64,000 nucleotides of DNA from Patiria miniata (taxonomy: Eukaryota), in contig NW_024037060.1 in assembly GCF_015706575.1 (NCBI RefSeq), positions 2,664,515 through 2,728,514 of the forward strand. The letters run 5' to 3'. A model generated the notes under the pieces. That model was not told the origin of the DNA and ran no database searches. It saw only the letters and a program-made list of their open reading frames with translations. The position numbers were made by a program, and so were the translations under genes. Positions 22,260-61,484 of this stretch are shown here, in pieces; position 1 is the first letter of the stretch; each line of letters begins with the position of its first letter.

Positions 22260-22378
22260 ATGGCGGGATTCAATTGGATACTTTTACTGTTCGTGTCGTC
22301 TACTTGGACGTGTTGCGTGCGGGGATCGCTGGAACCAAGTAGTCCTACTTCGTCTCAGAGTACAGCCGTTGGTTGCAG
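22260..22378 (+). CDS. Exon 1 (coding part) of MEGF10/Draper-like receptor: signal peptide MAGFNWILLLFVSSTWTCCVRGSLEPSSPTSSQSTAVGC
   Basis: An ATG in Kozak context is followed by a hydrophobic h-region (WILLLFVSS) typical of a signal peptide. A donor gcag|gtagga lies at 22378/22379. The overlapping 82-aa ORF in the track (22150-22398) is in another frame and has no signal-peptide character. Confidence 0.45.
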
Positions 22379-27854: not shown

Positions 27855-27940
27855 TGATGCAGAGGTCTATCTAAAGCAAGACTGGGACACATTCACTTCC
27901 TGTTGCAAGGCGCTATATCCCAACCAAACATGTCCCATAG
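27855..27940 (+). CDS. Exon encoding the C-terminal end of an EMI domain (DAEVYLKQDWDTFTSCCKALYPNQTCPI)
   Basis: The acceptor is tttttttttcag|TGATGC and the donor is CCATAG|gtgagt. The motif CC-x3-Y-x4-C-P-I matches the 'CCPGYYESGDFCIP' end of the EMI domains of MEGF10, MEGF11, PEAR1 and Draper. The phase is compatible with the next exon. Confidence 0.6.
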
Positions 27941-29513: not shown

Positions 29514-29721
29514 CTTGTCCGTGCCGAAACGGGGCCGAATGCTCGCCGAACAACCGAACCTGCGCCTGCAAACCGGGATGGGTCGGCCCCCAGTGTCAAA
29601 GGTCATGTCGGGACAGTGATAATCACACATACGGTCCGGGCTGTAAGCGGAGCTGCCGCTGTGGTCCGGACGCTACGTGCGAACCGATAACCGGCGTCTG
29701 CGAATGCGTCCATCCTGAAAA
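29514..29721 (+). CDS. EGF-like exons 1-2 (CPCRNGAECSPNNRTCACKPGWVGPQCQRSCRDSDNHTYGPGCKRSCRCGPDATCEPITGVCECVHPE)
   Basis: The acceptor is ttttcgtcag| and the donor is GAAAA|gtgagt. The cysteine pattern C-x-C-x2-GW-x-G-x2-C and YGPGC-x3-C-x-C are the laminin-type EGF repeats diagnostic of the MEGF/Draper/CED-1 family. The phase joins the flanking exons without stops. Confidence 0.75.
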
Positions 29722-30124
29722 GTGAGTTCCAATGTGGTCACGTGATTTGTCGTCCAGTATAGACATTATGCACGGCAGCCATCTTTGAGGGCGGTGCTCA
29801 GTCACTGAGTGTGTTTTGTTCAGCCCGTCATTGAAATATTTGTTTATTCTTCGTTACAATATCAGTTACGATAGTTTTCTGATACCTTTCCCCCGCATTT
29901 TCTTAATTATTTCTTTAAATAGTAATGTATTGGTTCATTTATTTATATCATGCATCTATCCTATCTTTATCGATATCTTCTGTTTTATTTATATCAACTG
30001 TTTTAAAACAATATCAATCAATAGTCAATACGCACGGAAGGCAAAAATAACTGAACGAATCGCTGATGTTCTGTTTTCGTACAGGAATAACTTTTTGCTA
30101 TATATATTTTTTTGACGGTGGCAG

Positions 30125-30234
30125 TTGTACAGCGCGTTGCTCTAGAAATCGTTATGGTCCAACATGTCGTCAAAAGTGCCGATGTAAGAAGACGGGCGAG
30201 TGTGATCAAGTGACCGGGGCATGTATCGTGACAG
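30125..30234 (+). CDS. EGF-like exon (NCTARCSRNRYGPTCRQKCRCKKTGECDQVTGACIVT)
   Basis: The acceptor is ggtggcag| and the donor is GACAG|gtatgt. It is in phase with the neighbouring exons and carries the MEGF-type YGPxC...C-x-C...G-x-C pattern. Confidence 0.75.
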
Positions 30235-30771
30235 GTATGTCCGATTCCAACTTGTGGGCGGATCCTGGTGGGAGGGTGTGGATGGGTTAATACCTGTGTA
30301 GGAGTTTAATGCTCGAAAAAAAGGGATTGGGAGAAGCGTGTCCATTCAACAGCATTGATATTACTACTGACTTAGGATTGATTTTAATCAATCCTAAGAA
30401 TATAATCTCTCCGATTTCTGATTCTTCTCCGAAGAAAATCCAAACAAGAATCTGTAAAAAAATAATGAAATATTGCAAAGTCAGTGAGTGCAGTGAAAAA
30501 TTCGGCATTGGTGTGGAACAAAGCGGCTGATGGAGTCCAACTGCAAAAGGTGCAAAAATTTGTGAAAAAGAAGGACATAAAGAGAAAAATCCTCAATCAA
30601 ATATCTTAGCTGTTGTGTCCAAAATCGGACGGAAATCAGAGTGAAGAACATGACTTTATTTTCTTTAAAAGCAAAAGGAAAAAGAAATGCCGAATGAGAT
30701 GGATTCTCATCTCTTGGAAAACAAAGATCAAATGCACAATTTTTTTTCTTCGATTTCGTCCACTGCGAATA

Positions 30772-30986
30772 GATGGCTCACCGTCGAGCTGCGGCTGTTT
30801 GAACGGCGGAACCTGCCGATCTCACGGTAAGCCGTGCCGGTGCCCGGCCGCTTGGACGGGCCGTCTTTGCGACGTTCCTTGCCCGTCGGGATACTACGGA
30901 GATGACTGCTCGATTCAGTGTGAGTGCGGAGACAACTCGACTTGCAGCCGGTCGACCGGGCTGTGTGAATGTACGACTGGAAACAA
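30772..30986 (+). CDS. EGF-like exons (DGSPSSCGCLNGGTCRSHGKPCRCPAAWTGRLCDVPCPSGYYGDDCSIQCECGDNSTCSRSTGLCECTTGN)
   Basis: The acceptor is gcgaatag| and the donor is AACAA|gtaaga. The repeat reads C-x-C-x2-AWTG-x2-C followed by a second laminin-EGF. Phase 1 entering and phase 2 leaving are both consistent with the neighbours. Confidence 0.75.
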
Positions 30987-31231
30987 GTAAGAACAGATCA
31001 ATGGCATTACTGATGAAGTGGAATTGTTTGAAGTATAGGGGAGGGGTGGAGCCTGTGGAAATCAGGGGCGCAACTCTCCGCACGTGTAGGCCTATTGACC
31101 CTACAATTTTAAGGAGTGGAGTAATATGGGAAGTAAAAAAAAGTAATATTATGGCGATTATTATATTGCTTTACTCTTAAGTATTACCCCTGGCCCTATT
31201 CATCAGGCGACGAAACCACTTTTTTTTTCTG

Positions 31232-31400
31232 CAGCAGCTCGAGATCAGCACAATCTGGTTTCTACTCTCACATATACCCATTTATAATGTACCCCTTGGT
31301 GGAGAGAGGAAATTGTAGTAAAATATCTTGCTCAAGAACACAAGCATCACGTTACCAGGCTGGGTTTGAACCAGGACCAATGGACCACGGCACTCCACAG
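31232..31400 (-). mobile_element. tRNA-derived SINE, copy 3, in the intron between EGF exons
   Basis: It has the same head and body as copy 1 (cagcagctcgagatc...ggtggagagagg...gggtttgaacc...tggaccacggcac). A T9 run on the + strand at 31222-31230 corresponds to the A-tail of the - strand element. Confidence 0.6.
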
Positions 31401-31737
31401 TCATGTTGTCCCATTATGCCGCAATTGGAAGTGGCAACATTGTCATAAAGCGACGAAATAAGAGAAAGTCATCATGACAACTCCAGTCTCCAGTTATTTA
31501 TAGTAGTGAGAGTTCATCCCCCGAAGCGTGCCGTTCGTTTGGTTTCTTCATGAGACTGTTTCCGACCCAATCCAACGACTTGTCACTCTTTTTGAAATAC
31601 TGCAACGATGTTATCTACCACAGGAATTTGAATCATCGTGACTTGACATAAGTGAAATCTCTTTGAATTTCGTCCCTGAAATACCCCAATGAAAATGATG
31701 GAAGTGAAATTTCTTAAACTTTCACTATTTTCCCCAG

Positions 31738-31892
31738 GTACTCGTGTGTGGGCCGGTGTCCGGAGGGACTGTGCGGTCCGCGGTGCTGGGACGAATGCAG
31801 ATGCCCGGCCGGTCTGGTGTGTCACCAGTGGACGGGAGATTGCGAATGTCGGACAGGCGATTGCACCAACAATCTGATTGGAGCAGCAACAG
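31738..31892 (+). CDS. EGF-like exon (KYSCVGRCPEGLCGPRCWDECRCPAGLVCHQWTGDCECRTGDCTNNLIGAAT)
   Basis: The acceptor is ttttccccag| and the donor is AACAG|gtacac. It is cysteine-rich in an EGF pattern and its phase is consistent with the neighbours. Confidence 0.75.
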
Positions 31893-35820: not shown

Positions 35821-36238
35821 GCCTAGATATAAGCACAGCTACTGTCACCACACCACGTACGACCCAACCTACGCCACTAGAGACTAACGCCACAACTGGT
35901 ACGCTTCCCCCACCCACTTCAACCACCGCCCTGTCTTCACTTCACACCAAGCAGAAAACAACGGTCATCCCCACATCAACCGACGGGTCAACGACACGAC
36001 ACGCGGCCGGGAAAAGCGACGACCGGCCGGCGGCGACGGGCGAGACCGGCCCGGTAGCGGATGGGTCGCCGCAGCGGAGCGACGATGACGCAGCCAAGCC
36101 AGCGGGAAATGGGTTCTATCCGACGGCGCCGTTTTGGGGTGTGGTGGGTACCATCGCGGTGTTGCTCCTGGTCGTCGTCGTATTGCTGTTACTCATACTA
36201 AAGCGACAAGTGTCATCGTCCCGATTGGCATTGACACG
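35821..36238 (+). CDS. Exon encoding a Thr/Pro-rich mucin-like stalk, the transmembrane helix (FWGVVGTIAVLLLVVVVLLLLIL) and the basic stop-transfer KRQVSSSRLALT
   Basis: The acceptor is tcaccaaaag| and the donor is ACACG|gtaagt. A 23-residue hydrophobic stretch is followed by KRQ. The upstream T/P/S-rich segment (TTPRTTQPTPLETNATTGTLPPPTSTT) resembles an O-glycosylated stalk. The phase joins the EGF exon upstream and the cytoplasmic exon downstream. The 162-aa ORF in the track starts artificially at an internal Met. Confidence 0.7.
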
Positions 36239-39080: not shown

Positions 39081-39157
39081 GCAACCGAAGATTTGCCGGC
39101 AAGACAACGTTTACGAAACAGTGGAGGATCTGGGCAAAGGCGCAGCTATCGAACAAG
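39081..39157 (+). CDS. Juxtamembrane cytoplasmic exon (RQPKICRQDNVYETVEDLGKGAAIEQ)
   Basis: The acceptor is ttttcaatag| and the donor is AACAAG|gtaagc. Only this reading frame keeps phase between the TM exon (phase 2) and the terminal exon (phase 1). It contains a DNVY motif. Confidence 0.55.
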
Positions 39158-42420: not shown

Positions 42421-44078
42421 TTATCAAGACACCTCCACCGCTACCAGACATGTTTCAACGAGGAGGCAGCACGAGATCTAGCGTGCACAGCTACCACCAC
42501 AGGCCGTTATCCGTGCATTCACCACTGCCGACCATGGACGCCCCACTGCCGGCCAGCGTGGCGGCCATGGTGTGCAACTACGGTGGTGGCCCGCCGGTAC
42601 CGGGCGGTACATCGCGCCGGAGTCTCATGGCCGAGTGGCGTCCCCACGGAGTGCGGGACTCGCAATCAAATCTTATAGATGACCCCAAGACCCAGAATCG
42701 CAGTGGCAAAGCGCTGAGCTGTATCTACAACGGTGGTATTATGATCGAGGATGATTACGCAGATCCTTTTGATACGATCGCACCGACCGGTAACACGGGG
42801 AACCGACCAGCTGGCTACTTACCGATGATTCTAGGACAAGACCAAAGACGGAGCCAATCCCCGGTTCCGAGGAGCAGGACACCGCCAAACCTCTCACGGG
42901 GAAGTTCTCCTGTGACAGTACCTAGGAGTGACTCTCCCATGGGGGTTCAACGATGCGATTCTCCAATGGCGGTACAACGATCTGATTCCCCGATGACGGT
43001 TCAACGATCCGATTCCCCGATGACGGTTCAACGCTGCGAGTCCCCGATGTCTACCCAGCGAAGCTCGTCTCTCATGAACGTCCAACAAAGGTCTGCCTCC
43101 CCCATGACTGTTCACCAAAGTGAACCCAATTTGCATCTCCAGCAGACTGACTCCAACATGAACTTCCATCCCAGTAACTCTTCTGTAGATCTCCGTAAGG
43201 GATTCATGGGAAGTCCATCCAGCTCTCCTCAGAGACAGAGTGCATCCGGATCCCCAAGCTTCGATCCATTTTACTTTACCCTCGAGCAGGGAGCCAAGCC
43301 AGACAGCCCCAAGGGTCCTGATGATGATTACGATGAGCTGGAGCCACAGTCACCCATCAACTCTCCAGCAGGAGGGTTACCATTCGACGGCCGGTCTGCA
43401 TCATCTCGTACAAGCAGCGAGCGCTCCAGGGCGTCATCTCATGCTTCGTCTCGAGGCTCCCTCTCCGCCAACTCCCCCACCTTAGCGTCTTCCTTCGGCT
43501 CTAGCCCGCGCGATGCCGAGATGTTCGCGGTGTTAGACCGCAGACCGGAGACACCCATCAGGCCGGATCTGCCGCGGCGACTTGTGTCCAGCAACGTGTA
43601 CGCGTCCTGCGGGCCTCCCAAGACGTCCTCCACACCGGCGGACGATGGGATCTACTCCAGGTTGAACAGGACCCCATCCCAACGGATGGAGCTACCGACC
43701 GCTCCGCGTGGAGTAGCGGACCTGGACATGAGTACCTACGGTAGGCTGCAGCGTAGCTACTCGGCCAAAATTCCCGCCCGTAACACCACCGATGGCCCGT
43801 ACGGGAAGCTTCCCCAGCGTAGCAGGTCAGCGATGGTTAAGAGTCATCAAAACGTGAGCGGATCGGCGTCGGCCGTGGATTGCGAAGCGGGAGAATGGGT
43901 GCCTGCCGAACTGCACCCACGCCTCGGGCCCCGGAGAACCAAACCGCCTAACGTGACGGAACCACGGAAGAAATCTCGCTGGAGTATCAAGGGCAAGCTG
44001 GGCAAAAAATCGCCAGCGGAGATGGATTTTGACTGCCCATCATCGACGGCAACTCTGCCCTACCCTGGTGATTGGTAG
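42421..44078 (+). CDS. Terminal exon: ~550-aa Ser/Pro-rich disordered cytoplasmic tail with 6-7 tandem nonapeptide repeats (S/C-D-S-P-M-x-V-Q-R) and three YxxL motifs; stop codon at 44076-44078
   Basis: The 562-aa ORF in the track is this exon. The acceptor gtttcaaaag| at 42420 falls inside the ORF and is in phase with the preceding exon (g+tt gives Val). The composition is typical of MEGF10/PEAR1/Draper tails (S/P-rich with multiple tyrosines). The tandem repeats and the YSRL, YGRL and YGKL motifs are read directly from the sequence. Confidence 0.75.
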
Positions 44079-47516: not shown

Positions 47517-48048
47517 GACAGTCTTATATAGCGCAAAACATAACCGAGGGAAATCTCAATGCGCTTAACAAAGCAAACATAGGTAAGCAAAAATTACAGT
47601 GAATGAGAGTAGGCCAATTGAAACAGATGGGATTTGAGGTTAGATTTGAAGTTGTCTATGGTTGGAGCTGTTCGAAGTGGGGATGGAAGGGCATTCCACA
47701 ACTTGGGAGAGACGTGTGAGAATGCCTTTGAGCCGTATGATTTGGTCCTTGGTATAGTTGTTGTGAGGAATCCCTGGGAAGATGAACGGAGAGATCTGGG
47801 AGGATGGTGTGGTTGTAGCAGCTCAGTAATGTAGCTTGGAGCAGTTCCGTTTAGGGCCTTGAAAGTAAGCAGAAGGGTTTTGTAGCGAATGCGCTGCCGG
47901 ATGGGCAGCCAGTGGAGGGATTTGAGGGTTGGAGTGATGTGGTTGCATTTCTTGGAAAGGGATACCAGACGGGCAGCGGAGTTTTGGATGCGTTGGAGTT
48001 TGTCAATTTCTTTGTCTGGGAGGCCAGTAAGTAGGCAGTTGCAGTTAT
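47517..48048 (-). mobile_element. 5'-truncated CR1/L2-type LINE 3' fragment (ORF2 C-terminal tail and 3'UTR) with a (TAT)n tail at 47494-47516
   Basis: The 176-aa - strand ORF contains the conserved LINE ORF2 C-terminal signature LHWLPIRQRIRYKTLLLTFKALNGTAPSYITELL...RSLRSS...SKAFS...PKLWNALP...FKSNLKSHLF. The element ends in a trinucleotide microsatellite, as CR1/L2 elements do, and it is inserted precisely between units of a 57-bp minisatellite. Confidence 0.7.
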
Positions 48049-48918
48049 TACATGACTTTTCCCAATGATTTTTCCCTTGCAATATCAACTTTCCATGACT
48101 CCTTGTACAATCACAAAATTCCATGACTTTTCCTGATACATTGTAGCTTCAAATTTCAGGATTTTCCCATGTCTGTGGGATAGGACATTCCAACAAGTTG
48201 AGAGTGATTAAGTAGAGTCCATTGCGAGTCCTCACAATTCCAACAATTTCTCACAAGTCCATCACGAGTCATCCAGGATCAAGTCAACTCACAAGCTAAT
48301 CACATGAACTGTGAAAGACCGATTCCTTTGTTACTGTACATCCCCTGTTTCTTGTGAGCTGACTTGTAATTTAACTGGATTTGCGATGGCCAACTTCAAC
48401 ACTGCAAATTAAAATCTACAATGTATAATTACAAGAAATAAAAGCAAGGACTGTAGTTATAAATATACAAAAATAATTATAGGTGGGTAGGTGGAGCGGG
48501 TCGGCTTTTTGTTCCCTTCATTGTTCCGACACTGTCTCAAAACGCTTGAAGCATGACCATGCTTAAAGGCTCATTTGCATTTATCCAAAAGTAACGTACC
48601 AAATTATTATCAAAAGCTTACTTGGATAAAAGATTGTACTTGTATTAAGCACCCCATGAAATTACTCCGTCTGGCTTGCTGTCATTAAGAAGAAATCAAG
48701 AAATGTAGGTGATTTCCAACGATCAGTCAATTGACTGACTTTTGGAACGAGGTACACACTGACCAAATCGTGTTTCGAGATCACAAAGTTGTGCATGGTT
48801 TTTCACTGTTTCCTCGAAAAGTGGAATATCCACCAAGCTGAAACGTCAACAGTTTAGGCTTTGAAGAATCTTCTTTGGATTTGAGTGGGTTTTGGTATTG
48901 GAAATGAACAAATTGCAT

Positions 48919-51516: not shown

Positions 51517-52011
51517 TCTGTAAAAAAACAACAAGTACTCTTACTACAGTTTCCTACAAATTCTTTCCGTTAATGGACATTACGACTTTTCCTTTTTGAA
51601 TGTTCCTGTGTGTCAAAATAGCTCCAGCCATGGAAAAAGGGTTAATAAAAGATTAATATTTTGGCTTAAAAGATCTACTCTTGAACTAGCAAGGGTACAG
51701 TGTCATTTCTCCAGCCCTACATTATGGACTTCAGAATCCCAAAAGTGCTGCAAAAAGGTCCAGTCTGGAACGATTTCAGAAAATCAGAACAAATACTCAC
51801 ATATTTTTTCTCATACTACCACTTTTTAAAAATAAGGGGGTCAAAAATATTATATTAGATTAAAAAGAAATATTCAGCCATTACTGGAGTTGGTTTGAAC
51901 TAGTTGAAAAACAGCTTTGTGTACATTAAACATGACTTTTCCTCATTGTCATCTCTGAATTTGGTATGTGCTAAACTGCACAAAATGAGCTCACAAAAAA
52001 AAAAACCTTAC

Positions 52012-53593
52012 CAGGTCCTTTGGAAAACTGCTGTTCTCTTCCTCATGTTGTGGTATTGCTTTCCTCATTTTGTGGCTGTCCGATCCTTCGTGGTCACCCT
52101 CATCACTGCTGTAGCTGAACAGGCGGAAATTCCTGCCACCGAGTGGCGATTTGTCATCAGGACTCATAGAGTCCTTAGACTTCTTGGCATCTGCCTCGCG
52201 TGAGCTTGCTTCTCTTTTGTCACTCTTCTGAGTATCTTTCTTCTGACTCTTGGAATCATCTTTGGTGGACTTCACCAAATCGGGAGCCTCGTAGATGGGC
52301 GATAAGTCCCGGCGTTTGTTAAGCGGAGGCTTTGCGTTGGTTGAAGGTGCTACCGGATCGGATTTAGCCTCTTTGTTGTCTAGGGCAAACGTGATATGCT
52401 TCTCTTGAGACTTTTTGGTCTGGGACTTCTTGGAGAGGATGCCTCCTCGAGGAGGCTGCCTGACGGGGCGGGGAGACTCATCAGCATCGCTCTCCGACCA
52501 AGGGATGTCTGAGGACAAGCTACTGACGCTGGAGTTGGACCCGACCCGCTGGTGAGCAGACAGCTCCTGGGTCTTGCTGGTTGCCGGGGAGGGCAGGAGC
52601 TCTAACTCCTCCCGGTTGCTGATCTTGACGATAACCTTCCCTGATTCGGGCTCTCCGAACTCATTAGTGGGCTGAACCTTCCTCATGAAGCCGGGCAAGG
52701 CCTGCTGGCAGTGCTTGGGATTCTGCGAGTAAAGCTTAGCTGAGATCTGGTGAAGGTTATCAGAGATCTGCGGGAGTTTTTCGAATGTTGGAAGCAGGTA
52801 AGGCATGGGGCTTCCTTGCTGCTCCCATCCCAATGGTACCGTCCTATCCTGGGATGTATTCGGATCAGTTTTGTCCATACAGTGTGGCTCCTCATCTTGG
52901 TTCCTCAGGACAGTGTCTGGTTTCTTGGCCTTGTCCTCTGCCCCGATGGAAGACTCAACTCTGAGGGAACTCTTGGAGTGTTTTGAGCAAAACTGCTCGT
53001 AAGAAGGTGGAGAGGTGACAATACGTGCACTATCTCCTGAAGACCTGAATTGTTCATGGAGGGTTTTTTCGACAGTCGACTTAACACTGAGACCTTGTTG
53101 CAAAGGCTCACTGTACTCAATAGACGCCTGAACATGGTGAACATTCGCCTTAGACTGCGGCAGTTTTGGATTTTTACCGTCGTTCCTTGATCCAGTAATG
53201 CCTCCTGTCATATATTGCACACTTGGGTTATCCTTCGTTTGGAAGTCTAGTGAGTGGGGAAGACTAAACCTTTGATCTTGAGTGTCTCTCAAAGGGTCAC
53301 TGGGTTTAGATCCAAGTAAAGAATTCTGTGTTACAGGTTGTGCCGTTTCCATTTTGCCTTCATTTGCAGACATCCCCCTTGGTGATAGTTCCTCGTTCCA
53401 CGATGTCTTGCATTTCTTAGCTGAGTGACCCGGGGAGGACTGTACCACTCCCGTTTGTAGGGAGGATGAGGATGAGCTGAGGGATGAGGTGTAACTGCTG
53501 CTCAGGCTGAGGGTGTCTAGGTTGTCAGAGGCCAGACTAGGGCTGGGGTGATGGAGGGTGGATATCTGCTGGTTGACCTCACTCAAACGAGCT
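52012..53593 (-). CDS. Very large Ser-rich low-complexity exon (~527 aa) of the ankyrin/coiled-coil gene
   Basis: This is the interior of the 599-aa - strand ORF in the track. The acceptor is ttactatttcag| at 53593, and a strong donor GACCTG|gtaagg lies at 52012. Alternatively, read-through to the in-frame stop at 51991 would make this the last exon. Confidence 0.65.
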
Positions 53594-54047
53594 CTGAAAT
53601 AGTAATTATAGTAACTCATAAAAAAGGAAACTTGGTTCATGAGTTCAAAACCTGATGGGGAACATGATGATTGTGTCCTTGGGAAAGACACTTTACTAGA
53701 ATTGCATCTTTCAACCCAAGAGTATAAATAGGTACCTGTGAGGGTAGAGACCAGATTGCATTGCTCTTGGCTGCAGGTAAGTGGTCTCATGGCCTGATGA
53801 ACAGGGGTAATAACTGTAAAGCGCTTTGAGACCTACCTTTGGTGGAGAGTGCTCAAGCAACACACATTATTATTATTATCAAATCTCTTGTCTAGAGCTA
53901 CTGTCTCAGTCTGCGACTATTACAAATACATGGGTGCATGCTGACAGTAGACATAGCCATAGCACTGGAAGCCTGTGGACACGGCCTCTTGATGAACAAA
54001 CAGAAAAGTTAACTACAAGTCTGAACTGAAATTGAAAATACAAATCC

Positions 54048-54272
54048 TACCGTACCTCATAGAGTCCAATGCCAGACCCGTCCTTAACTCCGTGGGAGGG
54101 GCAGGCCATATCGGACTGGTCGGTAGCGGCTGCAATCTGCTCAATCGTCTCTCTATCTCTTGCAGCTGGTCTCTGTTAGCTTCCAGCTCCTGCCGTTGGT
54201 CTAGCTCTAGCAGCTCTGAGCAGGCCTGCTCCAGTTGATCGGCCTTCTGCTTGGATACTAACAAGTCATCCC
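54048..54272 (-). CDS. Coiled-coil exon (DDLLVSKQKADQLEQACSELLELDQRQELEANRDQLQEIERRLSRLQPLPTSPIWPAPPTELRTGLALDSMRYG region)
   Basis: The acceptor is ttgactgcag| and the donor is CTATGAG|gtacgg. It is in phase with the 55215 exon only if no intervening micro-exon is used. It matches the 83-aa - strand ORF in the track. Confidence 0.65.
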
Positions 54273-55214
54273 TGCAGTCAAAACGGTTAATGATGTGGAG
54301 TCGTTATCAGGCAGGAAATCCTTGAGAAAAATTAAAGTAGACTTTGCACATTTCATTGAAGGAGCAAATGAATGGAGAGAATGCACCCCTTTGGCTGAAA
54401 CATGTTCACCAAGACGATAATAGTTGAAAAAGTTGGTTAAATCCTGTAGCACCAGCTCGTTGGAAAGATGTCTACTATAAATTTCTGCTAAATTTCACTC
54501 GGGAGGTAACACACTGTGTATACAGTGTTTATACGTCGGTGAAGGGCAAAAAACCTAAATTTGATTTACATCACCCGATGCAAAATTCCATCTTATGTAT
54601 GAATTAATAGTTTTTAAATTGGTCCATTTCATGAAACTACCACAAATGCATGATCCTCTTTAACACCTGCTAGCTACCAGACTAGCTGGCTTGCACCCAT
54701 TCAGGTATGTGTAACTGATTGCAAACAAAATGTGGACTAAGTAAATTCTGTTTACCTGTTCAATGGACATGGAGCTACTTAGCAGAAAAAAAATACTCCT
54801 TGAGCAGTAGAATGATGGACGCCGTGTGCCAACAGTAGAGAACGCTTTTTAACCGCTTTCAAACTCCAGAGGAGGGACATATTGCATGTGCGTACCGTTT
54901 CGTGCGCGTATGGAGTGAAGTAGGCACCATTATTATTATTCCGAATGTGTACAAAACAATGGTGTTCTTCGCGTGAATGGTAGATGTATGCCATCATCAA
55001 TGCGTTTGTATGTCCCTCACAGTGGTCTTCCCCAACTCTCTCTTTGCAACCGTTGAGGGGGTACTTGTGCATAAAGTCTATTGGCTAAGCACGAATCTGC
55101 TGACTACTACTCATGAGCAATTTATATTGCATGGCAACATTGTTGATAACATGTTTTGCTACGCAAATAACTACTGCAATTTAAAGCAGATTTCTGACTG
55201 ACAAGTATTTTTAC

Positions 55215-55387
55215 CTGGATGTGGTGGATCCTGACTGGTTTCCCGCATCAGTCTGGTGCCGGTGCATCTGGTCAAGCTGACGGACCAACAGGTTGGTCAG
55301 GTCGACGTACTCCCCCTGGATTTGCTCAATACGCTGGGTGAGGTCCGTCTTCTGCGTGTGGACCAGGGCATCGGTGCAGGACATGGC
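55215..55387 (-). CDS. Coiled-coil exon (AMSCTDALVHTQKTDLTQRIEQIQGEYVDLTNLLVRQLDQMHRHQTDAGNQSGSTTS)
   Basis: The acceptor is tacctcaag| and the donor is ATCCAG|gtaaaaa. The heptad-like composition suggests coiled coil. Confidence 0.65.
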
Positions 55388-56042
55388 CTTGAGGTATTTG
55401 TAGAGAGATCAAAATTATTTGAGATGATCAAAAATGATTCCCCCCCCCCAGGAACAGCCCCCAATTCCAACTGTTGTATTTTATATGGAGCATATCCCTG
55501 GACACAAGACCCTGTATAACATTTCATAGCTTTTGATCAATTTCCCGAAAAGTATTGACATATTGACAGACTGCCAACATAATAATCATGTATTAACTAG
55601 CTATGAGGTCACTAGTATGCATCTATTTCCCCTCTGGAACTGCAAGAGAAATAGGCCTCGGGAAATAGAACTATCTTGTGGTCACTCACAGGTCTAGGGG
55701 GCGGGGGAAGGGTAGGCATAGATGTGTACTAGTGACGGAAGAATGCAATCACTACGTTTTGAGAGTCTTACCACCTTGCATGCACATGACACTTGACACA
55801 TGTCTAGTTCACACTCTATGTAACTGCCATACACTACCCTACAATAGTGAAGCCCACGTGACCATGTTTTTAGCTAACCAAGACAACAACAAACAGGTGT
55901 GATTGAATCGTAGACTGCTCAGTTAGTACAGCACTCCGACAGAAGTCAAAAGGTCATGGGTTCAGGGTCTGCTCTAGTCCTGCTAAGCTCATTCTTAAAG
56001 GCATGTAGTGATTTATGAGCAATATATGACTACGATCTCACC

Positions 56043-56085
56043 TCTCTCAGCTTTTTGGCCAATACGTCTTTCTCCTGTTGACTTC
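56043..56085 (-). CDS. Small coiled-coil exon (ESQQEKDVLAKKLRE)
   Basis: The acceptor is gtttaatacag| and the donor is GAGAG|gtgagatc. Only this frame is open and in phase with both neighbours. Confidence 0.5.
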
Positions 56086-56793
56086 TGTATTAAACACAAA
56101 ATAGTACAACAGAAAATATGAATTCCAAATTGGTTTGCATTTTCTTTTTAACAATACTGTATTAAAGGAAATAATGCAAACAATCTTTACGACACAAAAT
56201 GAGATAACTAAAAATAACTTGTGGAAACAATTGTTATCCTGGATTAAAAATTGAATTGTACGCTATTTTGGGGGTTGATTGTGTGTGGCTTTTAAAAAGA
56301 TCCACATGAAAATTTACAGACAATTATGTAAAATCACACAGCTTTCACAAGACTCCTATATTAATTCTGCAATGTTAATTATGTTTGAAAAGTTACCAAA
56401 TTAATTAACCCTAACCCTGCCAGACACAACACAGTGCATCAGGTGGAAAAGAACTGGTGCACTTTGATGCATTCAGCTACCAACACCAGTGCATGAATGA
56501 CCAGCTCTGAAACAATGAGAGCTAAGTCCTATTGATCAATGCCACAGGTGTCTCCTGCTGCATTCAGTGACCACAGACTCTGAGGCAGTTTGGCCTTGAG
56601 ACTTTTGACCTGATGGATCTTGCTACATTTGGCAGGCTTGTCACTTAGTCAAGTGTTGTATGTTGCTACGTTTGGCAGGGTTAGGATTTCATTGTAAACT
56701 AAAATTTACAATTCTTAACTGCGTTATAATTATTCTTTTCTGATCAAGTTAGCAGAATATGGTAATGAGAACGGTATGCTAAAAGCAGCTTAC

Positions 56794-56963
56794 TCTCTCA
56801 GTTTCCTCTGCGTAACGGTCAGCTCATTGGACAGTTTGATGCAGGTTTCCACGACGACCAGATACTGAGCACAGGGGTGGTGGTGGTACCTGGTGGCCAA
56901 CGTGCACGGCGATTGCTTCTTCTTGTTGAGTAGAGTCACGTCGGAATTGAATTCAACCAGAGT
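56794..56963 (-). CDS. Exon after the ankyrin domain (TLVEFNSDVTLLNKKKQSPCTLATRYHHHPCAQYLVVVETCIKLSNELTVTQRKLR)
   Basis: The acceptor is gacttcag| and the donor is GAGAGA|gtaagc. It is in phase with the previous exon at 58092-58330 and with the next exon at 56043-56085. Confidence 0.6.
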
Positions 56964-57184
56964 CTGAAGTCATGAAGGAGACAAAAAAAAAAATAATACC
57001 GGAGTCTGATATAGCGCACGTATCTACTAACAATTAGGTACTCAAGGCGCTGGAAATTACATGTATGTCTATTTTTAAAGACAGGTAAATGAACTGTGTG
57101 AGAAAATGTGAGCTCCATTATGCAGCACCTTAATAAGGGTTTACAAGGTGCTGCGGGGAATATTGCAGCCACTGCCATAAACAC

Positions 57185-57425
57185 CGGGGCAAACCCCTTC
57201 TCTTAGCGATAGGTGTTACTGGGTTCTTTAATGTGCATTACACAACACACACGGGACCTACGGCTTTACGTCTCATCCGAAGGACGGAGCAATAATGGTA
57301 AAGTGCCTTGCTTAAGAGCACAACACCATGTTCCCCATCAGGATTCGAACCCATGTACCACGGCACATGAGCCAAACACCGTAACCATTGGACCACAGCA
57401 CCCCACGATGCAGGTTTCCACTGCA
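57185..57425 (-). mobile_element. tRNA-derived SINE, copy 4, in an intron of the ankyrin/coiled-coil gene
   Basis: It is a full-length match to copy 2 in the opposite orientation, and the short ORFs overlapping both are nearly identical in translation. Confidence 0.65.
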
Positions 57426-58091
57426 TGCCTTTACGTACAGACTAGCACCACAAATAAACACATTGAAACAACATAATCTGTGGACTCTGTGCGCAAGTAC
57501 CCCCTCAACGGTAAGAAAGGGAGAGTTGTAGGAGACCACTGGGGAGCCATTTGAACGTATTGCCGACGACGCCTGCTATGGCTTTGTGAACCTTCATGAA
57601 TAAACTTAGTCGTGCATACTTCGCGCTATACACGCGCGGACCAGAACGAGCACATTGTGTGTCCGGTCCACTGGGCTCTCAAAAGTAGTCGAGGGCGCTC
57701 TCTCTCTTTGCAAACGGAGCCCATAGTAATCCACCTGTTGTCTGTACAAACACAGACAGTCCAAACTTCAGTCGACTTCCCTAAGCATGCCTTTATGTAC
57801 AGACTTACACCAACAGTCACATCACACTTCTAATAAGCACTATAAATTCCATCAACAGACAACCGCAAGTCACTGGTAGAGCTGGCTCACAGATCTTCTA
57901 CAGTCAAGGCAAAGCTAAGTGATGTTACTAATAACAGTCACAGCCTATCAATCAAACACTGTGGATGGACCAATCAGATCAAGACTAGGTCAGGTGACTA
58001 TGGTGGCTCAGTCAAAGTCACAAGCACTGTGAGAAATGTACACGAACCAAAGGTGGGCGGAGCTTATGGTCAAATCAGAAACGGTCCATAC

Positions 58092-58330
58092 CTGTAGGCA
58101 GGAGAGATGCCCATATTTGGCAGCCAGGTGGGCGGGGCTATTGTTGCTATGGTCTGTCTGATCCAATGTGATATCTTGCATCTGCATGTGTTCTAGCAGC
58201 CAGCGTAGGCAGGTTTCCTGGCCGAATCGGGCGGCGAGGTGAAGCAGTGACCAGCGGTGGTCCTGGGTGTGTAGCTCCGAGGCCGAGCCGGGAAGCTCAG
58301 CTAGGCACTTGACGCAGTCCACCTGACCAT
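58092..58330 (-). CDS. Ankyrin-repeat exon (HGQVDCVKCLAELPGSASELHTQDHRWSLLHLAARFGQETCLRWLLEH...SPAHLAAKYGHLSCLQ)
   Basis: The acceptor is tcaatcacag| and the donor is CCTACAG|gtatgga. It contains two ankyrin repeats and overlaps the 104-aa - strand ORF in the track. Confidence 0.7.
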
Positions 58331-58840
58331 GCTGTGATTGAGAAAAAAAATGTCATAATTGGTTTCACTGTAACTCCTCCTTCCTTCAAAATCCAACTCT
58401 GGGTATTGAACATAGGGGGCCTATTTCATAGCAATGCTTATGCATATATGCTATGTTAATTATAGCTGAAAAAAAAACTTGTGTTAAATTTAGATGCATT
58501 TCATGGTACGCATAATGGTCCAAACATCAGAAAAATTTGACCAATATCCTTCAACTTTTGTTACAATGTGACCTGAAGGTTAAATGTGACCTCAAGGTTA
58601 AATCTGACCTCAATGTTAAATCTAACCTCAAGGTGACTTTTAACATAAATTTGCTCCATATTTTATGGGATTAGCCCCCAAACTTCCTTAGTAAAAATCA
58701 AGGAACTTACAACAAGGGCCACACAGAACACATGAAAAAGGTTTAACCAATGCTCTTAATCAACTTTGCTTCTTGATTCTAAGAGGAAAGCCACTCACTC
58801 TCTTCAACTCTTCATGTCAGAGATTGTTTTCTATTCTCAC

Positions 58841-59026
58841 CTTGACAGCCAAGGCAGCGGCTGTGAAGCAGTCATCATTCTCAACTGACAGCATCCCGGC
58901 ACAGGGTCCTGCGGCCAGCCAGGCTAGGCAATCAACGTGGCCCCGCCTGGCCACAGCGTGGAGCAAGGTGTTACCACGATTGTCACGGACTTCTGATAAA
59001 CCTTCATTGGCCGCTAGAAGAAACTC
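58841..59026 (-). CDS. Ankyrin-repeat exon (EFLLAANEGLSEVRDNRGNTLLHAVARRGHVDCLAWLAAG...)
   Basis: The acceptor is ttttcccgtag| and the donor is GTCAAG|gtgagaat. It carries the canonical ankyrin consensus G-NTLLH-A-GH---LL. Confidence 0.7.
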
Positions 59027-59904
59027 CTACGGGAAAAACAGAAATTATACATGATGCTTAGGGAGTGTCTCAAAACGAAGAATATTTGAGTGTTCAAAAG
59101 AGATTTTTTTGATACATATACGTCACATATATAATTTTTTTTGCGAACCAGTTGTTGGAAAAGAATGGGTTGGCCATCATCCCGAAATGAAGAAACAATT
59201 AAAAAATTTTAATAAAAAAATTCAATTTCAATAATAACATAAACAAAAAATAACTTACAAAATATTCTTAAATCTAAATAAATACCATCTCTTTATATTT
59301 GCAATTATTGCAAATTCCATGGTTTACTTGACAAGTTTTCAAATAAACATCAGGTAGTTCTTAAATGACTGACTAGAAAAAGTGCTACTTTATTTGATTT
59401 TGTGTGACGGCTGCCCACCACTTTTTGAAAAGTTTTGTCAACCATAAAGCAGAAAAAGAATGCTAACCATAATACATACATATATACGTGTACGTATTTC
59501 ATGGAATGGATGTGCAAAGGCTTGTCAGCACATGCTATTTCCATTGTTGTGTTGCCATCTCATATCGGAAAATTTTATGTATTACTTCAAGAGCATGGAC
59601 TAATCAGTTGATTTTATTGTTATACCTCTAAGAATGCAGAAAAGTAGATAGATTACAAAGTGGGGGACATGGCTTCTACGTTCACCCTTCTGAAACACGC
59701 AATATCCACCACAAAGTAATTCCTGAGATTTCACTGATTTGGGCATATATTCAGGGTCCTTTTGCTACCCCTGTTTTATTAAGATTTTGTTGGATAGATC
59801 TGGTTGGATCCAAGAATTATAGGGTTAACAACCATTTGTCAAATACACCTACTGATAAAGTTTCTGTTATGCAATCAGCAAATACCGCAAATCTGACAAC
59901 TCAC

Positions 59905-60877
59905 CAGGACCTGCCGGTCGCCACGTGCTGCAGCTTGTATGAGTTGTTTATGCAAGGTGTTGTCCCTAGCCCCGGGGCTAAGAGGTGTCGCTACAGCAAC
60001 GGATGACATCTGACCTCTAGGCTGTGCATTATTGTCTGGTACCCTGTCTCTTTGTTGCTGTAATGATGTTTCGGCTACAGTTTTGCTGGACGAGGATGCC
60101 GAGCTCATTTGAGTCTTCAAAATCTTGGCCTGCTGTTTGGCAATTCGTTCCCTGTCTCTGTCCTCTTTGTCTCGCTTCTTGTTCCGGTCTTTCAGTCTGG
60201 TTAGGGTTCTCTTAGCGTCCTTATTGTCTTCGTCCGATCCTGAAGCTCGGCTTGTGAGGTGATGCTGGGCCTTGTTGTTCCTCAGAAGATTAGACATGAG
60301 AAAGCGGACGCTCTTCCCTCTCGGGACCTTCTGTTTGGTCCTGATTGGGGAAAGGTCGCTAGACGCCAGACTGGACGTCAGGCTGCCGTCGCGGGACTCT
60401 GTCGTGCTAATCGATGAATTCAGACTTTCTTGATCCTCACTTGGGCACTGTACATGATTGACTGCGATACTCTGTTTTGCCGTTGCGCAAGTTGAGATGT
60501 CGTTGGGTTTATCCCCATTTCCTTCTCCATTCGCTTCAAACGCCAAGATAAACTGCATGAGCTCCTCCGAGTTAACGTCAATGCACAGCTCCTCGTCCGA
60601 TAGCACAGCATCCGAGGACTCCCCCTGAACAAAAGCATCCAGCAGGGCTTCGTTTTGGGCCACCTTGGCGTCCGAGAACCCCTCAGTTTCTCGAGGGTCC
60701 TTTTCCCATGTGACATTGTTGTTGTTGCGCCCACGGCTGGGTTCCAGTTCCTGCGATTTATTCTTGGATGATTTGGAAGACAGCAGCAGCTTTTTGAAAT
60801 CTTCCTCCAAGGATGATTTCCGAGGCCCTTGCTTTGATTGGTTGCTCCCTGATGTCGCATTTCTTTGCTTGTGGCCA
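59905..60877 (-). CDS. Large low-complexity exon (Ser/Lys/Asp/Glu-rich, KDRNKKRDKEDRDRERIAKQQAKILK) ending in the start of ankyrin repeat 1 (LHKQLIQAAARGDRQVL)
   Basis: This corresponds to the 311-aa - strand ORF in the track, whose 'M' is a TTG. The true exon begins at the acceptor tttttctaag| at 60877 and ends at the donor GTCCTG|gtgagt. The phase joins exon 2. The 172-aa ORF in the alternate frame is rejected. Confidence 0.7.
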
Positions 60878-61484
60878 CCTTAGAAAAATACAAATCCAGT
60901 CTTGATATTTTACAAGTGAATATGAATATTTTTGTCAAGAATGATACAGATCATTACTGGTTCCAATTTATGAATCTCCTAAGCACATAATTAGCAATAT
61001 TATAATGGTATTTAATATGATGTCAAAAGCCAGGTGTTTCTGCAGCTTTTTCAATACTAAGGCCAAAAAAAAAAATATTTGGTCTCTGGTCAGACCAAAG
61101 TTCCGGAATTGACACGGGGACGCGGCTTTTTTTTTTTTCCCAAGCTTGGATTGTACAGACAAGGTGGGGTACTATTTTGCTATTTGGTGTCCTCATGTAC
61201 ATTGGTGTCTTCCATAATTTGCCTAGGTGCTCTCGATCATTTGCCTTGGTGCAATTTCCCATTCCTTGGTGCTCTTTGGTAAAAAAAATTGAGGAGGTGC
61301 GGCAATAGAGGGCGCTGTTGGAGCTACCGCAGAACATTTTGAAAAAAAGAAAGATTGACGCGCATGATTAAAATCGACACGCGCGCTGACCAGAGACCGA
61401 CTTATTTTTTTTTTTGGCCTAACTCATGAAAACTATTTTTCGGGGAAATTATGCAATGGTTATGCAAAACAGTTTTATACAAAC

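What the first reader, a model, noticed from the sequence alone, without database searches (positions are those of the whole stretch)
43640..43815. Three YxxL motifs (YSRL, YGRL, YGKL) near the C-terminus plus a juxtamembrane DNVY: ITAM/hemITAM-like signalling potential
Draper signals through an ITAM-like YxxI/L pair and an NPxY, and MEGF10 through multiple tail tyrosines. Here three YxxL motifs are spaced ~28 and ~19 residues apart (DDGIYSRLN ... MSTYGRLQ ... DGPYGKLP). A DNVYETV motif sits 15 residues after the TM. This is consistent with Syk/Shark-type or PTB-adaptor docking and supports the functional assignment to an engulfment-receptor-like protein.
Basis: partly seen in the sequence, partly recalled or inferred. 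Interest (0 to 1): 0.5.

Follow-up and report, generated by a model that had tools for sequence, protein, structure and literature searches.

The report
Conserved tyrosine motifs in sea-star receptor tail
The three YxxL motifs are real, translated and mostly conserved docking-type motifs in the long disordered tail of a sea-star-only multi-EGF membrane receptor, but they are not an ITAM and the protein is not a Draper/CED-1/MEGF10 family member.

Summary
The window is sea-star DNA (Patiria miniata). The finding lies in the last of nine coding exons (22260-44078, + strand) of LOC119729553, an uncharacterised 1014-aa type I membrane protein. It has a signal peptide, about seven MEGF/SCARF-type EGF modules, a Thr-rich stalk, a TM helix and a 590-aa Ser/Pro-rich tail.

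YSRL, YGRL and YGKL sit exactly where stated. The tail holds five YxxL against 0.8 expected (P=6e-4) and three Yx[RK]L against 0.09 (P about 2e-4). Acidic residues are enriched upstream (P=3e-4). Tyrosine is the best-conserved residue type in the tail (10/13 invariant against 37% overall). The exon is under purifying selection (dN/dS 0.15).

YSRL and YGRL are invariant in five sea stars. YGKL is lost in three. None of the five tails has a canonical ITAM (spacer 6-12), a strict hemITAM or an NPxY, and none of the three full-length orthologues has an EMI domain. A profile search of 1.84 billion proteins found the tail only in sea stars.

Best reading: these are acidic-context, hemITAM-like phosphotyrosine docking sites, and they also fit AP-2 YxxΦ sorting signals. 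This is an ordinary kind of feature in a lineage-specific receptor, of modest interest.

The parts
22260..22378 (+). Coding exon 1: start codon and signal peptide (residues 1-39 plus 2 bases)
   Evidence: tblastn of the P0001 N-terminus gives 100% identity. The donor is AG|GTAGGA.
27855..27940 (+). Coding exon 2: short Cys-containing N-terminal segment (SDAEVYLKQDW...NQTCPI). Too short for an EMI domain.
   Evidence: Pfam finds no EMI.
29514..31892 (+). Four EGF exons (29514-29721, 30125-30234, 30773-30986, 31738-31892). They encode about seven MEGF/SCARF-type EGF modules, with 47 Cys in residues 24-300.
   Evidence: Splice-consistent model. Cys count. PDB sequence matches to SCARF1 8hna at E 2.6e-10, then 6u11 and Tie2. 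Named EGF relatives are MEGF10-like and MEGF11.
35821..36238 (+). Exon with the Thr/Ser/Pro-rich stalk (residues 297-401) and the transmembrane helix (residues 402-424, 36132-36200)
   Evidence: The helix at 401-429 is the only confidently modelled element.
39081..39157 (+). Juxtamembrane exon with DNVYETV (39103-39123; Y448 codon at 39112-39114)
   Evidence: Invariant in the 3 orthologues that cover it.
42421..44078 (+). Last coding exon: 552 residues of the Ser/Pro-rich cytoplasmic tail plus the stop codon (44076-44078)
   Evidence: dN/dS is 0.15 against L001. No secondary structure is predicted.
42747..42779 (+). Invariant island EDDYADPFDTI (Y575): YxxP overlapping a DPF motif
43263..43340 (+). 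Invariant DPFYFTLEQ (Y747, YxxL plus a second DPF) and [DE]DDYDE[LV] (Y766, triacidic run directly before Tyr; YDEL or YDEV). The spacer is 15-19 residues.
43641..43664 (+). DDGIYSRL: first YxxL of the finding (Y874). DD-x(2-3)-YS[RK]L is conserved in 5/5 sea stars.
43737..43766 (+). YGRLQRSYSA: second YxxL of the finding (Y902, plus Y909). YGRL.RSYSA is invariant in 5/5.
43800..43832 (+). YGKLPQRSRSA: third YxxL of the finding (Y923). It looks like an internal duplicate of the previous module. Tyr and Leu are present only in Patiria and Acanthaster.

Best explanation
The three YxxL motifs belong to a set of at least eight conserved, tyrosine-centred short linear motifs in the roughly 590-residue cytoplasmic tail. 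The tail is Ser/Pro-rich and probably disordered. The protein is a sea-star-restricted type I receptor: signal peptide, about seven MEGF/SCARF-type EGF modules, mucin-like stalk, TM helix, tail.

Most likely mechanism: ligand-driven clustering lets Src- or Syk-type kinases phosphorylate acidic-context tyrosines. These include DD..YS[RK]L and YGRL, and in valvatid sea stars YGKL. The single phospho-YxxL units would then recruit SH2 proteins in a hemITAM-like way, one YxxL per chain with pairing through receptor clustering, rather than as a classical two-tyrosine ITAM. Neighbouring invariant tyrosines could recruit other SH2 adaptors that link to actin: YADP resembles a Crk/Abl-type YxxP, [DE]DDYDE[LV] resembles an Nck-type YDxV, and there are two NVYE sites. 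Unphosphorylated, the same Yx[RK]L motifs match the AP-2 mu2 YxxΦ signal, so they may also drive internalisation.

Shown here: the motifs exist, are translated, are statistically enriched, sit in an acidic context and are under selection. Inferred: phosphorylation, the identity of the partners, and any role in engulfment.
For: - The gene model equals NCBI protein LOC119729553.
- Purifying selection on the exon: dN/dS 0.15.
- YxxL enrichment P=6e-4 and Yx[RK]L P about 2e-4, repeated in all orthologues.
- Tyr is the most conserved residue type: 10/13 invariant against 37% overall, Fisher P=0.0036.
- D/E occupy 8 of 20 positions at -1 to -4 of the YxxL tyrosines against a 9.5% background, P=3e-4.
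- Several motifs lie in conserved islands separated by variable linker, the usual signature of linear motifs.
- The number of YxxL per tail is kept at 4-5 despite turnover. YGKL is lost while FAVL becomes YDAL or YAAL in the other clade.
- No secondary structure is predicted anywhere in the tail, and S+P+R+G make up 43% of it.
- Literature: triacidic-plus-YxxL hemITAM signalling through Syk (PMC3576117); non-ITAM tyrosines also matter in Draper (PMC6219719); YDxV motifs recruit Nck (PMC7040068).
Against: - No canonical ITAM, strict hemITAM, NPxY, ITSM, Grb2 (YxN) or conserved p85 (YxxM) motif occurs in any orthologue.
- One of the three motifs is not conserved.
- The tail has no homologue with known function, so nothing transfers by homology.
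- Yx[RK]L with Arg or Lys at Y+2 is equally a classical sorting signal (PMC4161167).
- There is no expression, phosphorylation or binding data. No paper mentions the gene.
- The AlphaFold model is low-confidence throughout, including the EGF region, so disorder rests mainly on composition.
Confidence: 0.45

Rival explanations
1. The motifs are purely trafficking signals. Unphosphorylated Yx[RK]L (YSRL, YGRL, YGKL) and YFTL would be YxxΦ signals read by the mu2 subunit of AP-2 or other AP complexes. The two invariant DPF motifs would add AP-2 appendage contacts. Together they would drive constitutive or ligand-induced clathrin uptake and recycling of a scavenger-type receptor, with no phosphotyrosine signalling.
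For: - Three Yx[RK]L against 0.09 expected.
- YGRL is identical to the syntaxin-6 plasma-membrane retrieval signal and close to TGN38 YQRL and furin YKGL (PMC4161167).
- Two DPF motifs are invariant in 5/5 tails.
- The ectodomain is closest by sequence to the scavenger receptor SCARF1 among solved structures. SCARF1 mediates ligand internalisation (PMC11563577).
Against: - The conserved islands extend well beyond a four-residue core (YGRL.RSYSA, DD..YS.L.R.PSQ).
- The acidic enrichment upstream of the tyrosines is not a stated requirement of YxxΦ signals.
- Several invariant tyrosines are not YxxΦ at all (YADP, NVYA/NVYE, YSAK, YNGG).
- DPF motifs are typical of endocytic accessory proteins rather than of cargo (my own knowledge, not tested).
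- The motifs lie 450-500 residues from the membrane.
Confidence: 0.3
2. The protein would be a Draper/CED-1/MEGF10-type engulfment receptor, whose YxxL motifs form an ITAM that recruits a Syk/Shark kinase through tandem SH2 domains, and whose DNVY is the counterpart of the NPxY that docks CED-6/GULP.
For: - MEGF-type EGF repeats. The named EGF relatives are MEGF10-like and MEGF11.
- A tail with multiple tyrosines.
- CED-1 itself has only a single YxxL (PMC8092387).
Against: - No EMI domain.
- Only about seven EGF modules.
- No NPxY in any orthologue. DNVY has N at -2.
- No YxxL/I pair with a 6-12 spacer (definition in PMC6219719).
- The tail profile finds no Draper, MEGF10, PEAR1 or SCARF tail among 1.84 billion representatives.
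Confidence: 0.07
3. The tyrosines are conserved for reasons unrelated to the known YxxL readers. Examples are contacts with a lineage-specific partner, local folding on binding, or composite Ser/Thr-kinase or 14-3-3 modules (YG[RK]L followed by QRS.SA). The YxxL pattern would then be incidental.
For: - The QRS.SA half of the duplicated module stays invariant even where Tyr and Leu are lost.
- The most conserved tail block, residues 500-539, has no known motif.
- The tail is lineage-specific.
Against: - Enrichment of YxxL specifically, with Leu at +3 invariant at Y747, Y874 and Y902.
- The YxxL count is maintained through gain and loss.
- The upstream context is acidic.
Confidence: 0.18

Closest known systems
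Scavenger receptor class F (SCARF1/SREC-I, SCARF2)
   Same: [quoted passage not shown] SCARF1 is the best single-sequence match among solved structures, at E 2.6e-10 over several EGF modules.
   Different: The similarity is confined to generic EGF modules. With a profile query, an unnamed EGF-like protein (6u11) ranks above SCARF1, and Tie2 is close behind. The sea-star protein has a Thr-rich stalk. Its tail has no detectable similarity to any non-sea-star protein.
Draper / CED-1 / MEGF10 / Jedi-1 (PEAR1) engulfment receptors
   Same: They share MEGF-type EGF repeats (named relatives), a single TM helix and a tyrosine-bearing tail with YxxL motifs. In Draper, tyrosines outside the ITAM are also functional (PMC6219719).
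   Different: The sea-star protein has no EMI domain, far fewer EGF modules, no NPxY, no ITAM with a 6-12 spacer, and no tail homology.
hemITAM of CLEC-2, Dectin-1 and CLEC9A
   Same: Both have a single YxxL preceded by acidic residues. Here these are DDGIYSRL (D at -3 and -4) and DDDYDEL (D at -1 to -3). Clustering could pair single motifs for a tandem-SH2 kinase (PMC3576117).
   Different: The defining acidic triad at -2, -3 and -4 is not matched in register. hemITAM receptors are type II C-type lectins with short N-terminal tails. Here the motifs sit 340-500 residues into a long C-terminal tail.
Tyrosine-based YxxΦ sorting signals (TGN38 YQRL, syntaxin-6 YGRL, furin YKGL)
   Same: YGRL is identical. 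YSRL and YGKL have the same form, with a basic residue at Y+2 and Leu at Y+3 (PMC4161167).
   Different: Those signals lie in short tails or near defined domains. Here there are extended conserved flanks and an acidic upstream context. Function is untested.
Nephrin YDxV motifs (Nck docking)
   Same: [DE]DDYDEV in three sea stars matches the YDEV motifs of nephrin that recruit Nck when phosphorylated (PMC7040068).
   Different: In Patiria and Acanthaster the motif is YDEL. There is one copy, not three. The protein is unrelated.

Membership tests
Draper/CED-1/MEGF10 engulfment receptors | N-terminal EMI domain | tested here: not met
   Pfam scan of three full-length orthologues at E up to 10 finds no EMI (PF07546), only sub-threshold hEGF. 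Only about 45 residues lie between the signal peptide and the first EGF module.
Draper/CED-1/MEGF10 engulfment receptors | Long array of atypical (MEGF-type) EGF repeats | tested here: inconclusive
   MEGF-type signatures (C.C...C...G.C.C) are present, but there are only about seven modules (47 Cys). The EGF relatives named by their sources are MEGF10-like and MEGF11.
Draper/CED-1/MEGF10 engulfment receptors | NPxY motif in the tail (CED-6/GULP PTB docking) | tested here: not met
   Regex over five orthologous tails finds no NP.Y and no N..Y. DNVY and SNVY have N at -2.
Draper/CED-1/MEGF10 engulfment receptors | Tail homologous to family tails | tested here: not met
   An HMMER profile of the tail against 1.84 billion representatives returns only sea-star clusters. 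All other hits align only to the SPMTVQR repeats.
Canonical ITAM | YxxI/L - 6 to 12 residues - YxxI/L (PMC6219719) | tested here: not met
   No match in any of five tails. The spacers are 15-19 (Y747-Y766), 24 (Y874-Y902) and 17 (Y902-Y923).
hemITAM | Single YxxL with acidic residues at -2, -3 and -4 (PMC3576117) | tested here: not met
   [DE]{3}.Y..L is absent in all five tails. The nearest are DDGIYSRL (acidic at -3 and -4) and DDDYDEL (acidic at -1 to -3).
hemITAM | Syk-dependent signalling after receptor dimerisation | not testable with these tools
   Needs binding and cell assays.
Scavenger receptor class F (SCARF) | Type I topology: signal peptide, tandem EGF-like modules, TM helix, large cytoplasmic portion (PMC11563577) | tested here: met
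   Architecture from the gene model and protein.
Scavenger receptor class F (SCARF) | Specific sequence relationship to SCARF1/2 beyond generic EGF similarity | tested here: inconclusive
   SCARF1 is the top single-sequence PDB hit (E 2.6e-10). It comes second to 6u11 with a profile query, and Tie2 is close behind. There is no tail similarity.
YxxΦ AP-2 sorting signal | Y-x-x-bulky hydrophobic in a cytosolic, accessible segment | tested here: met
   YSRL, YGRL, YGKL, YFTL and YDEL lie in a tail with no predicted structure.
YxxΦ AP-2 sorting signal | Binding to mu2 and Tyr-dependent internalisation | not testable with these tools
   Needs biochemical and cell assays.

The most novel reading that the evidence does not exclude
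Sea stars may have evolved their own phagocytic or scavenger receptor. It would combine a SCARF/MEGF-type EGF ectodomain with a de novo disordered tail that independently converged on Draper-like logic: several acidic-context YxxL units plus Crk- and Nck-type tyrosines, instead of an inherited ITAM and NPxY. YxxL sites turn over between clades while their number is kept. If so, it would be a clean natural example of convergent assembly of an immunoreceptor-style signalling tail in a non-chordate deuterostome.
Probability: 0.2. Interest if true: 0.5.

Novelty: new variant of a known kind. Interest (0 to 1): 0.3.

Why it matters
Echinoderm cellular immunity is classic biology, since Metchnikoff first saw phagocytosis in sea-star larvae, but its receptors are poorly defined. 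A sea-star-restricted multi-EGF receptor whose tail keeps a selected set of tyrosine motifs is a reasonable candidate for a coelomocyte or mesenchyme-cell uptake receptor. It also gives a concrete set of Y-to-F mutants to test. As a sequence feature it is ordinary. Short tyrosine motifs in disordered receptor tails are common, and nothing here changes the understanding of ITAM signalling.

Tried and rejected
- A word-index search with the ectodomain found nothing, not even the protein itself. I treat this as a tool limitation on Cys-rich sequence. A repeat with a 3-sequence alignment gave only generic MEGF-type EGF hits.
- The non-sea-star hits of the tail profile (E 2e-14 to 1e-3) were inspected and rejected. 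They align only to profile positions 175-260, the S-P-M-T-V-Q-R tandem repeats, and are unrelated repeat proteins.
- AlphaFold2 on the full length with a 5-sequence alignment gave mean pLDDT 34, with only the TM helix confident. The model is too poor for a fold search, so none was run. The absence of secondary structure in the tail is used only as weak support for disorder.
- The Acanthaster locus could not be fetched. dN/dS was computed instead against the ENA contig that carries P0003.
- Motifs considered and rejected as not present or not conserved: ITIM (S.Y..L in 3/5 only), ITSM, Grb2 YxN, p85 YxxM (YLPM in valvatids only), dileucine, FxDxF, RVxF.
- The tail profile finds nothing in the PDB.
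- No paper mentions LOC119729553.
- A literature check for Syk in echinoderms was not informative.

Full report
**What is at the coordinates.** The window is eukaryotic DNA with 40% G+C. The finding lies in a 564-codon stop-free stretch on the + strand. I built a gene model from reading frames and splice signals. All its introns have GT/AG and consistent phases. The coding exons are 22260-22378, 27855-27940, 29514-29721, 30125-30234, 30773-30986, 31738-31892, 35821-36238, 39081-39157 and 42421-44078. The translation is identical to the 1014-aa NCBI protein 'uncharacterized protein LOC119729553 [Patiria miniata]' (P0001). The window is therefore bat-star genome, and the whole coding sequence lies inside it.

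Y874 (DDGIYSRLN) has its codon at 43653, Y902 (MSTYGRLQ) at 43737 and Y923 (DGPYGKLP) at 43800. Small corrections apply:
- Tyr-to-Tyr distances are 28 and 21.
- DNVYETV, in a separate 77-bp exon with Y448 at 39112, begins 21 residues after the TM helix, not 15.
- Two more YxxL were missed: YFTL at Y747 and YDEL at Y766.

**Is it more than chance?** The 590-residue tail has 14 Tyr and 5.8% Leu. Shuffling gives 0.80 YxxL on average against 5 observed (P=6e-4). It gives 0.09 Yx[RK]L against 3 observed (P=2.5e-4). Three YxxL within 53 residues has P=8.5e-4. The enrichment recurs in each orthologous tail. Acidic residues fill 8 of the 20 positions at -1 to -4 of the five YxxL tyrosines, against a 9.5% background (P=3e-4).

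**Is the tail translated and constrained?** Four other sea-star proteins match the tail: Acanthaster planci at 72% identity, Asterias amurensis at 50%, and two partial sequences. I fetched the DNA of one of them (L001). Against it, the exon has dN/dS of 0.15 and codon-position identities of 68, 77 and 45%. That is clear purifying selection on this frame. The refutation 'the tail is untranslated' fails.

**Conservation of the tyrosines.**
- In the five-way alignment, YS[RK]L (Y874) and YGRL (Y902) are invariant.
- DNVYETV is invariant in the three sequences that reach it.
- YGKL (Y923) is present only in the two valvatid species. It reads Q-G-R-V or Q-G-N-Q in the other three.
- Tyr is the most conserved residue type of the tail, with 10 of 13 invariant against 37% for all residues (Fisher P=0.0036).
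- Six of the tyrosines lie in conserved islands separated by variable linker: EDDYADPFDTI, DPFYFTLEQ, [DE]DDYDE[LV]..PQS, YGRL.RSYSA and the CNYG tyrosine of the 500-539 block. DD..YS.L.R.PSQ is a weaker island that falls below that call's threshold.
- Where the valvatids have EMFAVLD, the other clade has EMYDALD or EMYAALD. Each tail therefore keeps four or five YxxL despite turnover.

**What the protein is.** It has, in order:
- a signal peptide;
- a short Cys-containing N-terminal segment;
- about seven MEGF/SCARF-type EGF modules (47 Cys in residues 24-300, four clear C.C...C...G.C.C signatures);
- a 105-residue stalk that is 45% Thr, Ser or Pro;
- a TM helix at residues 402-424;
- the tail.

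Pfam finds only sub-threshold hEGF and no EMI domain in three full-length orthologues. Among solved structures, the ectodomain's best single-sequence match is SCARF1 (8hna, E 2.6e-10), followed by an unnamed EGF-like protein (6u11) and Tie2. With a profile query the order changes, so the relationship is generic to this EGF type. The few named EGF relatives recovered are MEGF10-like and MEGF11.

I searched a profile of the tail with HMMER against 1.84 billion representative proteins. It returned only the sea-star clusters. Every other hit aligned solely to the S-P-M-T-V-Q-R tandem repeats and is unrelated. The PDB holds nothing similar. As far as sequence can show, the tail is restricted to Asteroidea.

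An ITAM is YxxI/L-x6-12-YxxI/L, and Draper also carries an NPxY (PMC6219719). The family has EMI plus EGF domains (PMC8092387). A hemITAM is a single YxxL with acidic residues at -2, -3 and -4 (PMC3576117). Regular-expression scans of all five tails find:
- no canonical ITAM (spacers are 15-19, 24 and 17);
- no NPxY (DNVY has Asn at -2);
- no strict hemITAM. The nearest are DDGIYSRL, acidic at -3 and -4, and DDDYDEL, acidic at -1 to -3.

Membership in the Draper/CED-1/MEGF10 family is therefore not supported. The weaker claim does fit the evidence: the tail carries functional tyrosine motifs of the YxxL kind in an acidic, kinase-substrate-like context.

**Mechanism.** I favour phosphotyrosine docking (confidence 0.45). 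Clustering would allow phosphorylation of acidic-context tyrosines. Single phospho-YxxL units would act in a hemITAM-like manner. The invariant YADP matches a Crk/Abl-type YxxP by my own knowledge. [DE]DDYDE[LV] matches the Nck-binding YDxV of nephrin (PMC7040068). These could couple the receptor to actin regulators.

The main rival (0.30) is that the motifs are sorting signals. Yx[RK]L is the classic YxxΦ form, YGRL is literally the syntaxin-6 retrieval signal (PMC4161167), and two DPF motifs are invariant. The two readings are not exclusive, because the same motif can bind AP-2 when unphosphorylated and SH2 domains when phosphorylated. The canonical ITAM/Draper reading gets 0.07. The reading 'conserved for other reasons' gets 0.18. 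The QRS.SA half of the duplicated YG[RK]L-QRS.SA module stays invariant even where Tyr and Leu are lost.

**Novelty and interest.** The gene is already predicted in NCBI but is uncharacterised. No paper in the searched library names it. It is a lineage-specific variant of a well-known kind of molecule, a multi-EGF type I receptor with a motif-bearing disordered tail. The motifs themselves are ordinary. Interest is modest, at 0.3. The most novel reading not excluded is convergent assembly of an immunoreceptor-style tail in sea stars (probability about 0.2).

**Limits.**
- The structure prediction was low-confidence throughout, so I ran no fold search.
- The ectodomain word-index search failed.
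- Sequences of Draper, MEGF10, SCARF and PEAR1 tails could not be retrieved for direct alignment. Non-homology rests on the exhaustive profile search.
- Phosphorylation, partners and expression are untested.

Noticed in passing
window 42944-43049 (wider: about 42900-43110), + strand: A 27-bp tandem repeat of 3.9 copies is the core of about seven degenerate 9-aa units S[DE]SPM[TS]VQR in the tail. These are proline-directed Ser sites. Copy number differs between sea stars. This repeat alone produced all the non-sea-star hits of the profile search.
   Followed up: partly
window 43737-43766 and 43800-43832, + strand: The second and third YxxL belong to a duplicated composite module, YGRL-QRSYSA and YGKLPQRSRSA. 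In three sea stars the second copy has lost Tyr and Leu, but QRSRSAM stays invariant. RS.SA looks like a basophilic-kinase or 14-3-3-type site.
   Followed up: partly
window 43524-43535, + strand: Motif turnover. Patiria and Acanthaster EMFAVLD is EMYDALD or EMYAALD in the other three sea stars. A YxxL is present there in the clade that lacks YGKL, so each tail keeps 4-5 YxxL.
   Followed up: yes
window 42531-42650, + strand: The most conserved block of the tail covers residues 500-539 (TMDAPLPASVAAMVCNYGGGPPVPGGTSRRSLMAEWRPHG). It is nearly invariant in five sea stars and has no Pfam or PDB match and no recognisable motif.
   Followed up: partly
window 43947-44015, + strand: A conserved basic-aromatic cluster, EPRKK[SF]R[WF]S[IL]KGK..KKS, lies near the C-terminus. 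It is reminiscent of membrane- or calmodulin-binding PKC-substrate segments. That resemblance is from memory and was not tested.
   Followed up: no
window 42438-42470, + strand: A conserved proline motif PP[PA]LPDMFQRGG begins the last exon and may be an SH3 ligand. The two partial database proteins (P0003, P0005) start at the Met of this motif, probably because their gene calls captured only the last exon.
   Followed up: no
window 51994-60879, - strand: A neighbouring gene appears on the opposite strand. It has long stop-free exon-like stretches at 51994-53832 (613 codons, Ser-rich), 54016-54303, 58011-58352 (ankyrin-repeat-like HLAA...GH..CL units) and 59878-60879.
   Followed up: no
window 47597-48148, - strand: A 184-codon stop-free stretch has a retroelement-like C-terminal sequence (…LKSLHWLPIRQRIRYK…) in the intergenic region downstream of the receptor gene.
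   Followed up: no
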